Shown: positions 6,980 to 15,236 of the stretch, in pieces | Layout of the letters: every line of letters starts with the position of its first letter | Position numbering within the stretch: position 1 is the first letter of the stretch | DNA from: Eledone cirrhosa | Taxonomy: Eukaryota | Assembly: GCA_964016885.1 (NCBI GenBank) | Contig: CAXHJY010001442.1 | Location: 1-51,892 of the forward strand | Length of the DNA: 51,892 nucleotides | Reading direction: 5' to 3' | Notes under the pieces: generated by a model | Database searches by the model: none | What the model saw: the letters and a program-made list of their open reading frames with translations, nothing else | Told to the model about the DNA's origin: nothing | Translations under genes and position numbers: made by a program

Positions 6980-7129
6980 CTCCAAGAATATTCTGCATCT
7001 ACAATGGCTACAAATATAAAATCTCTGAGAAATTTCCAGCATCCGATGGCTGCAGTAAATGTTCGTGTAGGGAGCTGGGCCTAGTCACTTGTGTCAAGAG
7101 TATTTGCACTAAAATAAGGAAAAAACGAG
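6980..7129 (+). CDS. Exon A of multi-module six-cysteine (pacifastin/VWC N-subdomain-like) protein
   Basis: AG at 6978-6979, GTAAGT at 7130; 150 nt, phase 1-1; CIYNGYKYKISEKFPASDGCSKCSCRELGLVTCVKSIC then RKKR. Confidence 0.85.
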
Positions 7130-7459
7130 GTAAGTTGTTCAACCTGCTAACTCAGTTTGTGTATCTGTGTTTGTGCCTGTCTTAGTGAGTGTGTTAAGAT
7201 GAATATTTCTGTCATTCCCCCTCTCTCTCAGCCCCCTCTCTCTATATCATCAGGTGCACCTGGGATTGGTCCAGTGCAATGCCTTTCTTCACTTAAAACA
7301 ATTTCAAGCACAGGCATCACTTAATCTAAACAACTTTCACGTGTGTTGCATGGCCTTTCCTTTTTACATTATACAGAAAAGAATCTAAGCCCTTGGAAGG
7401 GCTAAAATGTTATGTTTGTGCCACCCATGTATGAGAAAAAGGTCAAGGGATGGCAATTC

Positions 7460-8736
7460 TCAAAATGGTCAAAATATATGTGTCTGTGTTGAGAGAGGAA
7501 GGGTTCAGTCAGAGACCACACAACATTGTACCCCAATCCATTATTTTCTCTCTCTGTTGTGTTTCTTTCCTGTGTAAACATCAAAGTTTGCACAGTAGCC
7601 TGTGTCCGATTCACAGAGTTCCCACACCTTGATGCCCCATTTGGTGGGTTTAGCTGGCATATATTGTCTGAAATGTACTCTACCCTTATACCCAATCATA
7701 GCTTCATCAACATTAAGATTTTTCCCAGGTATATATATAATCATCATCATCATCATCATTTTACGTCCGCTTTTCCCTGCTTGCAATGCGGGACGGGTCC
7801 TATTCAGCACAATTTAAAATTTTTCATATAGCATTTTAATTAATGGTCGAACTTTATACAGAGGGTCATAATTCAGTTAATTTCTACCGGGGGCATTTGA
7901 AGTATCAACCAGGTGCAAATACTGGTTTAATTTTGAATACCTTTTTTTTGCCATAATACTTGATATATAAGGGTCACTAAACCTTATATCAGTGCTCCAG
8001 TATTTCCACAGTCTTGGAAATTGTTTTATACCAAACGTAATATTTATGGTAAAAAACGCTTGCATCTCCGCAGTATCTGTTGGTCGCCATAACAGATCGG
8101 GTTTCCTTCGATTTGAAACCTGTTGTTGGGCATATCGGTTAGTCTCTTTTGCCACAACTTTGAAGAAAGTTTGTGGCAAAAGCAAAAAGAAATAATCTAG
8201 TGCTTTAGCATCGGGAGGTAATGTGTGTTGTGGACCAGTATTTTCAATAAAATTGGGAACATGTATAGGTGTGGTATTTTTCGACCATGTTGCTGTAATA
8301 TCTTCAATGGCGTCCTGGAGATCTCCTTCGTTTTCACTTTCAAAACAACAATCAGCATCGGATGAAATTTCAGAAATGTAAACATCTGATTCATTTGAGG
8401 ATAAATCACTAATATAATCTTTTGTTTCTTGTTCATTTTGAATGTCGTCGTGTGTAAAACCTTCAAAATCGGTATCACTACTTTCATAAACCATGTTGAT
8501 ACACACAAAAATTCTGTTCTACTTTCAACGTTAAAAAAACACGTGTTGTTTCAAGTTGTTTCGTGTTAATTTTCGCGGTAAGGGCCTAATCTCGCAGTAA
8601 TCTCAAATTGACGAGATTTTGATGACAGTATTGTTTATTTTTAAAACAATATTTTAGTGTGGGTGTTATTGGCCGTTTTCGGCCGGATTGAACAAATGAA
8701 GGGGAAATACTTGCGGCCGGTTTGAACACTAAAGGG
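7460..8736 (-). mobile_element. piggyBac (PGBD4-like) transposon, degenerate and 3'-truncated
   Basis: Terminus CCCTTTAG next to TTAA (8737-8740); acidic N-terminus, ETNRYA, VDEAMIGYKGR..RQYMPAKPTKWGIKVW..CES.TGY, HIYFD; stops and a small insertion. Confidence 0.88.
7739..7805 (-). mobile_element. Short RTE/SINE 3'-end fragment with (GAT)n tail inserted in the piggyBac ORF
   Basis: (CAT)n-TTTTACGTCCGCTTTTCC resembles the RTE 3' termini at 41682-41730. Confidence 0.65.
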
Positions 8737-8771
8737 TTAAACAAGTAGAAGTGGGAAATTCCATGCAATAA

Positions 8772-9371
8772 TCTATATATCTAAAACAGAGAATGTCTGT
8801 CTGTCTGTCCGATTACTAAAACTTGAGAACCACTCAACCGATTGTTTTCAAACTTTACACATGTAATACTTATGGTCCTGTGAGTGTTTTGAGCAAAACA
8901 AATTTCAAATTTTCAATGCCTAGGGACCGCATTAGGCGATTTAGCGATCTCTCTCTCTTAGTCTTTCTTTTTTTAGATAGATACATAGATATAATGTTGC
9001 GCCCTTATAATATCTGTCTGTATGCCTGGCTGTCTGCATTATGCCATTATGACGTAGCTGTGTGTGTGTGTATATATGTATATATATAGTGTGTAACGTT
9101 TATTGAAATATTTACTTCTGCGTTCACAGATTGATTTTTTTAGTTTCAGAAGATCCTGTTAAGGGTGAAAGCAGCGATTCTTTGCTTTAATCTGTTATTT
9201 TAATATATATATATATATATAATTATATATTTGTGTACAGATATTTTTGCATACACAATAACAAAATATAAACAAACGTATTTACTTCATGAGGCTCGAT
9301 AAGAATAAATATATATCAAATATATAAGAACCCAAGAGCAAATCCCGAGCAACACTGGGCCACTCTGCTAG
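8772..9371 (+). mobile_element. Non-autonomous Helitron-like element (600 bp)
   Basis: Starts A|TC, (TGTC)n near 5' end, subterminal GC hairpin CCCGAGCAACACTGGG, ends CTAG|T, no TSD. Confidence 0.75.
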
Positions 9372-9496
9372 TAGATAAATAAAACATGAATATCAAAGTT
9401 CGCTATTTCATCGACTATTGAAATAATTTATCATCAAACATAATTGTTCCAGTTTTACATTGTTTCTCTGGGGATGGATTTTTATTATTCTTATAG

Positions 9497-12380: not shown

Positions 12381-13646
12381 AACACTTTACAGTAGAGAGG
12401 TTGTTACTTGCTCATCCTGACTAAACAGTTTTCCCAAACCCTGTATTGTCTCTGATTGCCAACACTGTAATCTCCAGTCACATACTACATATTTTTTGTT
12501 TCACTTCTTGTCTTTTATATTCTTCCACCAGTTACACCCTCCAGAAACATTCAGCATTTTTTAATACAACTATCTCCCTGAGAATTATGTCATGGGTACA
12601 TGTGTTTATGGAATGCTCAGCCACTTGCATATTTCATTGATCAAACATGCACATCACTAACAAATTGGTTATGCAATGTTATGAAATTTAATGGATTCAA
12701 GTATTGCATACAGTATTAAATTCTTTTTGTTTTGTCTGAAAATGTTAGCTGGACTACTATTTAAATAGAACATTATACTAAAATTGATAGCTTGTCTTTT
12801 GTCCATTGATTACAACACACAACTACCAATCTTATCAGCAGTAAGTTAAATAACTCTTAAAGTCTTCAGGGACCTCTCAAGTTGAGTCAACACTCTAGTT
12901 CCATGATGCTAAATAGATGAAAAATAGTTTTGACCACCTTTAATTATATTGTTAAATTATTACAAGTCAAATTTAAGTAGGAATGGTGAATTGATGGATT
13001 CCATTACCTTCTAAGACTATAAAAAGACTGGACCTAGTTTGAACTTAACACTAATACTAGTAGTTCGCTAATATTCCAGGATAGTGAATCACTATCCAGA
13101 ACTATTATTTACTCAACTACTATAATGACTAAAATATACATGTATTGAATATGATGATCTCGACTTTTACTTGACTGTTTTCCTATGAATGTATTTGCAA
13201 TGGCGAATAAAAAAAACCGTAATCAGTCAGTCTTCTTGTACGACAAGAGCTATCCTTCAATCAAATCATATTAAACTTTTATAGACTGCCTCTTCTGTTA
13301 CATGCCTTTAGGACCACAGAGTAAAGGTTAACAGTTGACTTTTCATGTCTACCTTTCATCAGAATTTTGGAGACAGCTATGCTTATTATACATAGTCTCT
13401 TGTCATCTAACAAATGGAGACAGCCATGCTTAATATATTCTCTTGATGTCTAACATATGACATGAGCTGACCAAATGTTTCTTTTATTGATTTCATATAA
13501 AAGTTTTTCAGCAACAGCTATGCCTAATATATTATCTTGGCATATGACATTGAAATAGGCTAACCAAATGTTTCTTTTTGGAGGTGAGGCTGCATTCTAT
13601 TTTCTATTAAAATTAATGTTGAATTTATGTAAAACTTTTTTCTCAG

Positions 13647-13793
13647 CTCAACAGAAAACTGATTCATGCAACTACATTGGACAAGTATACGTAATTGGAC
13701 AGATATTCATAGATACGGCCAAATGTAATCAGTGCAAATGCCAGCCGAAAGGAATTGTAACATGTAGCAAAACGATATGCACCCAGACAGCAG
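13647..13793 (+). CDS. Exon D of six-cysteine module protein
   Basis: TTTTTTCTCAG acceptor, GTAATA donor; 147 nt, phase 1-1; CNYIGQVYVIGQIFIDTAKCNQCKCQPKGIVTCSKTIC. Confidence 0.88.
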
Positions 13794-14044
13794 GTAATAA
13801 TACTAAACATTATTTTTGTTCACTGTTACATAAAGTTAAGGTAAACTTAGTGACCGACTGTATGCTTAGAGAGTATATGAGCACTGCCAAGCATTTCTAA
13901 GGCCTATTGAAATGCTATGACAAGCACACAAATGTCTAGTGTGGCACTTCAATGACTGGCTGCACCAATTACGGGAACTTGATTTATTGAATACTAACCA
14001 TTGATTTTCTAAAAGAACATTCTGAATATTGATCACTATTGTCT

Positions 14045-14215
14045 CATCATCACCATTTACGTCTATTTTCTATGCTTGAATGTTGTCTAATTCAGATGTT
14101 TGCATCTCTCTCATACGTTCAATTCTGACATGGTTTCTATGGCTGAATGCCTTTCCTGATGCCAACCACTTCACATTGTGTAGCGGATGTGTTTTATTGT
14201 GGCACCAGCACAACC
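14045..14215 (-). mobile_element. Degenerate RTE-type/SINE 3' end
   Basis: CATCATCACCATTTACGTC..ATGGCTGAATGCCTTTCCTGATGCCAACCAC, same family of 3' end. Confidence 0.55.
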
Positions 14216-15068
14216 ACCTTTCAACATTAGGGCACTCCTTGTGTAATCCTTATCCAAACTGGGAAGGCAGTTATGGAAGTAGGGGGATGAGAACAGGGGT
14301 GAGGTGGGGTGCATGCTACATATTTCTTACCAGGGGGGAAGGTGAGAGATAGAGATGGCCTTAGCGAAAGTAAGTGATGTTTTGTTTGTTCTGGGTCAGA
14401 CATGGAAAGAAGTGATTAGAGTGTGGGAATGAGAGAGGGTGGCAAACAATGTTGCCATAAATAACTGAAATAAAAATTGTTGTTTATGTCTAAATCAGAA
14501 TACGTTGTTATTTTTTCTTAAGTCATGCATAAAATGTAAATCAGATGAAAACATGGTGTCATTGTCATTCATACCAGAACATGGTACCAACTACAAATGT
14601 AGTTTGCAATATATTCATTTTTGTAATATTTTGTTGTCTAAATTAAACTCAGTTTTGGAAAATAAATGAGAATTGAAACTCTTAGAAATGTTCATTCGAA
14701 TATTGGTCAAGTTAATATTGATCTTGCCTTTGAGAGTTGAACTTCCTATGAAAGCATTTCAATGCACAATATGGATATTATAGTTTTATTGTCTTTCTTA
14801 TGACCCACACACATTGGGCATCGAATTATGGTAGCTGTTTATATATTCTGTCTATTGTGTTAGATACTCTGAAGGACAGAGGACTAAGGTAAAGAAATAA
14901 CTTTTCATGTATGTCTTTTCTTGACATTCTCAGAGACAATTAGCCATATGATATTCCTTCGTTGTTTTAATTATAACAACAGTGATGAGCTAAACGAATG
15001 TTTTATTTGGAGGGGTGTATTTTCAGTCTTCAAATTCATATCGAATTCGTATACAGCTTTTCTTTCAG

Positions 15069-15236
15069 AGACTCCAATACTGAAGATAGATATTTTCGCT
15101 ACATGCCACTACAATGGGCGCATATACATATTTGGCCAAAGGTTCGCAGCTATAGATAAATGTAATGAGTGCAGTTGCAAGACCGAAGGAAATATAGTGT
15201 GTACTAATATGATATGCACTCCCTTACGAAGTCAAG
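15069..15236 (+). CDS. Exon E of six-cysteine module protein
   Basis: TTTTCTTTCAG acceptor, GTAAAT donor; 168 nt, phase 1-1; CHYNGRIYIFGQRFAAIDKCNECSCKTEGNIVCTNMIC. Confidence 0.88.

What the first reader, a model, noticed from the sequence alone, without database searches (positions are those of the whole stretch)
6980..15236. Hidden modular gene: five phase-1 exons each encoding one pacifastin/VWC-like six-cysteine domain
Seen: five exons (150, 180, 165, 147, 168 nt), all AG/GT-bounded and phase 1-1, splice into an open 270-codon frame. Each has the same spacing C-x18-C-x2-C-x-C-x7-C-x4-C with a Y-N-G..Y..G..F consensus. Known: the C-N-x-C-x-C-x3-G-x3-C-T-x3-C half matches pacifastin serine-protease inhibitors (best known in arthropods), while the longer first loop matches the N-terminal subdomain of VWC repeats without the CCPxC half. 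Inference: a secreted multi-domain inhibitor, venom or defence precursor in a mollusc. The signal-peptide exon is not visible and probably lies upstream of the window.
Basis: partly seen in the sequence, partly recalled or inferred. Interest (0 to 1): 0.75.

Follow-up and report, generated by a model that had tools for sequence, protein, structure and literature searches.

The report
Giant octopus six-cysteine module array gene
The five exons are real and are likely the middle piece of one very large octopus gene built from about 87 small cysteine-rich modules, one per exon, whose product is predicted to be an uncut secreted scaffold rather than a venom precursor; the module type is already known.

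Summary
Observation confirmed: five phase-1 exons, 810 nt, open frame, identical six-cysteine spacing (0 matches in 100 shuffles). The window is a whole unplaced contig. Four more module exons lie on contig C810 and 78 on C2. Collinearity with Octopus bimaculoides and O. vulgaris 'kielin/chordin-like' models suggests one gene of about 87 modules (~4,200 aa); the contig joins are inferred. The module folds like fibronectin type I, VWF/mucin E modules and the first half of VWC, and fits the 'ancestral pacifastin-like domain' described in 2026. It is not kielin (no CC motif) and not a conventional pacifastin. A processed venom precursor is unlikely: KR/RR occurs in 3 of 72 linkers, Thr plus a typical P1 in 8 of 78 loops, and described octopus salivary pacifastins are ~160 aa proteins, with better candidate genes elsewhere in this genome. 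Best reading: an uncleaved, cationic extracellular scaffold whose Lys-P1 modules may inhibit trypsin-like proteases. Loop divergence between species (3/15 vs 58/95 identical) keeps the inhibitor reading alive. O. bimaculoides isoform models skip single modules. No RNA, signal-peptide exon or activity data. New member of a known kind.

The parts
6980..7129 (+). Module exon 1, phase 1-1; loop V-K-S-I (P1 Lys); ends in R-K-K-R (7117-7128), a furin-type motif (recalled consensus)
   Evidence: groups with O. bimaculoides modules d3-d5, SH-aLRT 98; weak AAG acceptor
9497..9676 (+). Module exon 2, phase 1-1; loop T-M-R-T (P1 Met); one-to-one orthologue of the O. bimaculoides module that starts M-K-R
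   Evidence: (72% identity); this module is absent from some O. bimaculoides isoform models
9953..10117 (+). Module exon 3, phase 1-1; loop S-T-A-P (P1 Thr, not a typical inhibitory residue)
13647..13793 (+). Module exon 4, phase 1-1; loop S-K-T-I (P1 Lys)
15069..15236 (+). Module exon 5, phase 1-1; loop T-N-M-I (P1 Asn); the only one above the Pacifastin_I cut-off; folded as five strands
   Evidence: (30.8 bits, cut-off 27.9)
15237..51892 (+). Likely part of a long intron: no further module exon; LINE fragments and microsatellites
   Evidence: (5 hits in the window); intron status is inferred
1..6979 (+). Likely part of the upstream intron: no module exon and no signal-peptide exon candidate
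   Evidence: intron status is inferred

Best explanation
The five exons encode five fibronectin-type-I-like six-cysteine modules and are likely the middle part of one giant octopod gene (about 87 modules, ~4,200 aa) whose product is predicted to be a secreted, mostly uncut, cationic beads-on-a-string scaffold in an extracellular matrix or secretion. Shown: one module per phase-1 exon, so any exon can be duplicated or skipped in frame; 4 modules on C810, 5 here, 78 on C2; one exon type copied 44-45 times in this lineage. Inferred: the order C810, window, C2; secretion; retention as a long chain; multivalent binding through the hairpin and sheet faces. A Lys-P1 minority of modules would likely inhibit trypsin-like proteases and so protect the matrix. 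Skipping of single modules, seen in O. bimaculoides gene models, would vary chain length.
For: One gene: O. bimaculoides XP_052827939.1 maps in order to C810 (first modules), window exon 1, window exon 2, then the window/C2 module type; O. vulgaris and other O. bimaculoides models map to the C2 middle and 3' end. Window exons are only 70-78% identical to the best C2 exons, so not a haplotig. Best splice sites chosen without regard to phase are phase 1 in 76 of 80 donors and 72 of 80 acceptors. Coding constraint: 44 of 45 young copies keep six Cys and an open frame against about 26% expected under drift. Fold: pLDDT 84, five strands; best matches MUC5B, fibronectin FnI, VWF/MUC2, collagen 2A VWC, while pacifastins align over about 30 residues only. 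Uncut: KR/RR in 3 of 72 linkers, median linker 7 aa. Mostly atypical loops: P1 Glu/Asp in 48 of 78, Thr plus R/K/L/M/F in 8 of 78; young array keeps P1 Glu in 41 of 44 with loop dN/dS 0.65 against 1.15-1.36 elsewhere. PMC13388995 infers a matrix-tethered role for this domain class. VWC-only 'kielin/chordin-like' proteins are the most abundant proteins of the argonaut eggcase matrix.
Against: No RNA, proteome, tissue or binding data for this gene. No signal-peptide exon found. No sequence overlap joins the three contigs and the fetched C2 stretch shows no gap. In five one-to-one orthologue pairs, P1-P2' is identical in 3 of 15 positions against 58 of 95 other non-core positions (Fisher p = 0.004), as expected for inhibitors. 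P1 is R/K/L/M/F in 19 of 78 modules and 3 of the 5 window modules. All fold scores are weak (Foldseek E >= 0.047; best Z 5.2). The matrix role in PMC13388995 is itself inferred, and the argonaut proteins could come from other module genes (sequences not seen).
Confidence: 0.45

Rival explanations
1. A multi-headed protease inhibitor: the chain mainly serves to display many canonical inhibitory loops with varied P1 residues against microbial or prey proteases, and exon turnover renews the repertoire.
For: P1-P2' diverges faster than other non-core positions between orthologues while P2 is kept in 5 of 5. Older modules have P1 Lys in 12 of 26 and P2 Thr/Ser in 22 of 26. The three-strand core overlays solved pacifastins at 1.2-1.6 A over about 30 residues. 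Exon 5 passes the Pfam cut-off.
Against: The largest expansion fixes Glu at P1 and Gln/His at P2 and varies elsewhere. Among paralogues the loop is no more variable than other exposed positions. The orthologue set is five pairs, chosen on non-loop identity, and an unconstrained loop would look alike. None of the 150 best Pacifastin_I matches scored in this genome belongs to this gene.
Confidence: 0.27
2. A venom or defence precursor that is cut into single-module peptides, as for insect and assassin-bug pacifastins.
For: Pacifastins are reported in octopus posterior salivary glands. A furin-type R-K-K-R ends exon 1 and K-R starts exon 2. Monobasic processing exists in an assassin bug. A chitinase gene is the neighbour on C2.
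Against: KR/RR in only 3 of 72 linkers. The two O. vulgaris salivary pacifastin entries I saw are 161-162 aa with signal peptides and hit other O. bimaculoides proteins; XP_014775123 does not occur in the held (cut) supplement. An ink-proteome pacifastin peptide matches the C26 module type (5 of 11 modules) and 0 of 87 here.
Confidence: 0.08
3. Not one gene: a tandem cluster of two or more module genes, or the window is an orphan duplicate of a gene fragment.
For: No overlap between contigs. Gaps of 52 and 49 kb inside the C2 array. Public models are split into several proteins in both Octopus species. Weak acceptor of exon 1.
Against: Exon 2 and the C810 exons have no closer copy among the module hits found in the genome and are one-to-one with an O. 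bimaculoides model that runs through them. All five window modules are intact, with dN/dS 0.14-0.65 against their nearest C2 exons. No convincing internal start exon was found.
Confidence: 0.13
4. A growth-factor (BMP/TGF-beta) binding protein working like kielin/chordin or brorin through the first VWC subdomain.
For: Fold matches to collagen 2A and CCN3 VWC; weak VWC and VWC2L Pfam matches; database names. That the first subdomain binds BMP is recalled, not tested.
Against: The second VWC subdomain is absent throughout. Rapid lineage-specific exon turnover and near-neutral change on exposed positions fit poorly with binding a conserved ligand.
Confidence: 0.07

Closest known systems
'Ancestral' pacifastin-like domain (Rodriguez-Aguilar et al. 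2026, PMC13388995; results and discussion read whole)
   Same: [quoted passage not shown]
   Different: The main text never mentions octopus, cephalopods or exons. The largest precursor it cites has 42 domains (a placozoan); this gene likely has about 87. No inhibition shown for this class in that paper.
O. bimaculoides XP_052827939.1 / XP_014775123.1 and O. vulgaris CAI9730160.1 ('kielin/chordin-like', 'VWFC domain-containing')
   Same: Likely orthologues: same module, same order, one-to-one modules at both ends, junction residues that change as split codons predict.
   Different: Automatic names are misleading (no complete VWC). Models are partial and split. Each species has expanded a different exon type.
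Conventional pacifastins (SGCI/SGTI, PMP-C; Pfam PF05375)
   Same: C2-C6 spacing and three-strand core.
   Different: First loop 18 rather than 9-12 residues; atypical P1 in most modules; few processing sites.
E modules of VWF, MUC2/MUC5/FCGBP, fibronectin type I modules, first subdomain of VWC
   Same: Five-strand hairpin-plus-sheet fold; best full-length sequence and structure matches.
   Different: Here the module stands alone in a long homopolymeric array, with no VWD, TIL or second VWC subdomain found.
Bivalve 'kielin/chordin-like' proteins made of half-VWC modules (Mytilus, Crassostrea)
   Same: Same module in arrays of 3-12, no CC motif.
   Different: Much shorter; signal peptides visible by eye; most Mytilus modules fall in a different clade of a weakly resolved tree.

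Membership tests
Conventional pacifastin (PF05375) | Six-cysteine scaffold | tested here: met
   5 of 5 window modules
Conventional pacifastin (PF05375) | C1-C2 loop of 9-12 residues | tested here: not met
   18 residues in 5 of 5; range from PMC13388995
Conventional pacifastin (PF05375) | Pfam gathering score | tested here: inconclusive
   1 of 5 exons passes; the others score 14-24 bits against 27.9
Conventional pacifastin (PF05375) | Reactive loop with P2 Thr and P1 R/K/L/M/F (criterion recalled) | tested here: not met
   1 of 5 window modules; 8 of 78 in the gene (one more on C810 was dropped by a mis-called donor); 23 of 24 at the C2:217.3 Mb locus
Conventional pacifastin (PF05375) | Dibasic processing sites between domains | tested here: not met
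   KR/RR in 3 of 72 linkers, any dibasic pair in 14 of 72
Conventional pacifastin (PF05375) | Serine-protease inhibition | not testable with these tools
   Needs an assay
Ancestral pacifastin-like domain | [quoted passage not shown] | tested here: met
   18 residues; strands 11-14 and 17-20 in the model; conserved Y, G, Y, G, F
Ancestral pacifastin-like domain | TM-score >= 0.5 to pacifastin | tested here: inconclusive
   0.67-0.71 by target length and 0.46-0.47 by query length for 2xtt and 2vu8
Ancestral pacifastin-like domain | Disulfides C1-C4, C2-C6, C3-C5 | not tested
   Model coordinates are not returned by the tool
Ancestral pacifastin-like domain | Secreted (signal peptide) | tested here: inconclusive
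   No convincing first exon on C810, the window or fetched C2; the first C810 module still has a phase-1 acceptor, so the 5' end is missing
Kielin/chordin-like protein (complete VWC) | Ten-cysteine VWC with the CC-containing second half | tested here: not met
   No CC in 87 modules, P0010 or P0007; Pfam VWC matched over positions 1-38 of 57; vertebrate and brachiopod kielin-type proteins carry about one CC per module
Kielin/chordin-like protein (complete VWC) | C-terminal VWD domain (recalled) | tested here: inconclusive
   None in P0010 or among flanking ORFs scanned, but models are partial
FnI / VWF-mucin E module fold | Beta-hairpin plus three-strand sheet | tested here: met
   top structural matches, with weak scores (Z 4.6-5.2)
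SVWC | Match to the SVWC profile | tested here: not met
   No SVWC row for any of the 5 exons at E <= 10

The most novel reading that the evidence does not exclude
Octopods keep a cassette library of about 90 in-frame module exons in one gene, renew it by lineage-specific exon amplification, and splice it combinatorially into secreted chains of varied length and varied inhibitory loops: a tunable matrix-and-defence polymer, about twice the longest pacifastin-type precursor cited in the 2026 survey.
Probability: 0.2. Interest if true: 0.65.

Novelty: new member of a known kind. Interest (0 to 1): 0.36.

Why it matters
It corrects annotation: the octopus 'kielin/chordin-like' models are likely fragments of one giant half-VWC array, not kielin. 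It also separates this gene from the loci that better fit the salivary and ink pacifastins. The gene holds Lys-, Met- and Glu-P1 versions of one module, so it is a ready test set for an open question: do ancestral pacifastin-like domains inhibit proteases or act as matrix beads? If splicing is combinatorial, it would add a case of exon-array diversification in an octopus secreted protein.

Tried and rejected
RNA evidence: no RNA holder listed; this says nothing about expression. Haplotig of C2: rejected, exons 70-78% identical and long high-identity matches are repeats. Contig overlap: none found. SepECP egg-case proteins: different cysteine motif with CC, rejected. Signal-peptide exon: two scans gave no convincing candidate; a search with the first C810 module found only itself. 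Single-sequence fold of a 14-module isoform: pLDDT 32, uninformative. No prediction of a module bound to a protease is available, so loop competence is untested. The careful tree did not finish; the quick tree has 9 of 114 branches at 95 or above. The repeat finder was swamped by microsatellites. Literature searches: pacifastin+octopus (8 papers), kielin+octopus (4), kielin+cephalopod (6), coleoid+pacifastin (6), pacifastin+von Willebrand (21), six accession numbers (0), octopus+'VWFC domain-containing' (0). None that I opened describes this gene; subscription papers, including Ruder et al. 2013 (seen only as a citation), are not searched. The bioRxiv argonaut Table 1 and supplements were not seen and bear on whether the eggcase proteins are orthologues. 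PMC8371367 (passages) added nothing.
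Full report
Observation. The five exons are present with the stated lengths, AG/GT ends and phase 1-1. They form 810 nt without a stop; the exact cysteine spacing occurs 5 times in the window and 0 times in 100 shuffles. DNA-run contigs cover the exons with essentially no differences (one sample, perhaps the assembly's own). The exon 1 acceptor is a weak AAG but the only in-frame choice. 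In Pfam, exon 5 passes the Pacifastin_I cut-off; the rest give sub-threshold Pacifastin_I, VWC, VWC2L, TILa or FnI_RECK matches, with VWC covered only over its first 38 of 57 positions.

Context. The window is the whole unplaced contig C1469 of a 3.0-Gb genome. The same module recurs on C2, minus strand, over 364 kb. A profile search of the fetched DNA gave 78 module exons there, 5 in the window and 4 on the unplaced contig C810; 83 of 87 have both splice sites in phase 1 and about five are degenerate (some boundaries are approximate). With sites chosen regardless of phase, 76 of 80 donors and 72 of 80 acceptors are phase 1; 7 modules lacking the full pattern were left out. The window is not a haplotig of C2.

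One gene in three pieces (inferred). The nearest named proteins are O. bimaculoides and O. vulgaris 'VWFC domain-containing' or 'kielin/chordin-like' models. XP_052827939.1 maps module by module: its first modules to C810, d3-d5 to window exon 1, d6 to window exon 2 at 72%, later ones to the window/C2 type. Other models map to the C2 middle and 3' end. A quick tree (120 rows, 45 columns, young array thinned to one in six, poorly resolved) agrees for exon 1 (98) and exon 2 (80). No overlap links the contigs, and the fetched C2 stretch has no gap. Among 141 flanking ORFs scanned (of 149 single-copy ones, from 882), the 225 kb upstream on C2 gave transposon-type families and one sub-threshold zinc finger; downstream lies a convergent GH18 chitinase. 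A short terminal exon candidate lies at C2:306,460,759 (unverified). No signal-peptide exon was found. The summed modules make about 4,200 aa, net basic.

Splicing. The 21 O. bimaculoides models I held give 21 module combinations, but they reduce to different starts plus five skippable modules, including the orthologue of window exon 2. Junction residues change as split phase-1 codons predict. These are database models; how they were built is not shown by any search, and full-length combinations may be enumerated by software.

Fold and family. The model of exon 5 has pLDDT 84 and five strands. Full-length matches are FCGBP and MUC5AC by sequence, and fibronectin type I, MUC2/MUC5B/VWF and VWC by structure; pacifastins align over about 30 residues. 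All scores are weak, as usual for so small a domain. PMC13388995 (abstract, results and discussion read whole; supplements searched) defines an 'ancestral' pacifastin-like domain with a 13-20-residue hairpin extension, common in molluscs, with Lys or Glu at P1 and few cleavage sites, and infers a matrix-tethered role without experiment. The module fits that class. It is widespread: 3,258 representatives at E <= 0.001, with named relatives in bivalves and myxobacteria. It is not kielin: no CC motif anywhere.

Inhibitor or scaffold. For a scaffold: KR/RR in 3 of 72 linkers; P1 acidic in 48 of 78 modules and Thr plus a typical P1 in 8 of 78; the 44 young copies keep P1 Glu in 41 and have loop dN/dS 0.65 against 1.15 and 1.36 in the other segments (pairwise values, not independent). 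The genome has better pacifastin candidates: 23 of 24 modules sampled at C2:217.3 Mb and 5 of 11 at C26 have canonical loops, and none of the 150 best-scored Pacifastin_I matches (of 1,253 candidates) is from this gene. O. vulgaris salivary pacifastins in PMC7693380 (passages and supplement rows; file cut) are 161-162 aa in the two of three entries seen. An ink peptide in PMC10142993 (one passage) matches the C26 type. In argonaut eggcases, VWC-only proteins dominate the matrix (bioRxiv 10.1101/2021.07.10.451900, section 13 read whole; table and supplements not seen). For an inhibitor: in five one-to-one orthologue pairs P1-P2' is identical in 3 of 15 positions against 58 of 95 elsewhere, with P2 kept in all five; older modules have P1 Lys in 12 of 26; 3 of 5 window modules have Lys or Met at P1. 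An unconstrained loop would give the same divergence, so this is not decisive.

Mechanism. Shown: symmetric exons, tandem amplification, and selection on cysteines, frame and splice sites (44 of 45 young copies intact against about 26% expected). Inferred: a secreted, uncut cationic chain that binds matrix partners multivalently, with a minority of modules guarding it against trypsin-like proteases (0.45). Rivals: mainly an inhibitor array (0.27), several genes or an orphan fragment (0.13), a processed venom precursor (0.08), a BMP binder (0.07).

Verdict. A real, well-read feature. The domain class and partial orthologue models are public; the likely full size and exon-per-module layout were not found in the nine literature searches run. 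New member of a known kind; interest 0.36.

Noticed in passing
G000:C2:217.29-217.38 Mb, minus strand: Array of dozens of near-identical module exons at about 1.4-kb spacing, mostly with a T-R-M-F loop; a strong candidate for a true trypsin-inhibitor pacifastin gene.
   Followed up: partly
G000:C26:14.02-14.07 Mb (both strands) and C3:121.22-121.23 Mb: Further module genes with a 16- or 18-residue first loop and varied canonical loops; the C26 type matches a peptide from an octopus ink proteome.
   Followed up: partly
G000:C451, C157, C440, C1:206.8, 207.6, 217.3-217.75 and 431.09 Mb, C4:235.3 Mb: A multi-copy family with single open frames of up to 2,206 aa made of back-to-back 37-aa modules without linkers, mostly with non-inhibitory loops. 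A possible source of the argonaut eggcase proteins.
   Followed up: partly
G000:C2:306.349-306.375 Mb, plus strand: Exons of a GH18 chitinase gene, convergent with the module gene.
   Followed up: no
G000:C2 about 306,509,076, plus strand: Inverted, damaged copy of the module exon at 306,503,478.
   Followed up: no
window 23525-26002 (-), 30008-31426 (+), 33651-34871 (-), 47183-49099 (+): LINE-type reverse transcriptase and endonuclease frames.
   Followed up: partly
window 7880-8518 (-) and 3323-4576 (-): A DDE_Tnp_1_7 transposase fragment inside intron 1, and a 418-aa frame with no Pfam match that looks Penelope-like by recall.
   Followed up: no
window 36142-37340, 18914-19246, 21621-21916, 39589-40559: Long fold-back palindromes or inverted pairs, 89-98% complementary; mobile elements or assembly artefacts.
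   Followed up: no
window 5992-6738; G000:C810:36,990-46,252: A repeat of about 468 bp, very abundant in the genome, forms a tandem array with an inverted arm near the end of C810; it may explain the contig break.
   Followed up: no
proteins P0009, P0041, P0054 and others: The same module occurs in myxobacterial and other metagenomic proteins, some with Kazal domains; already reported in PMC13388995.
   Followed up: no
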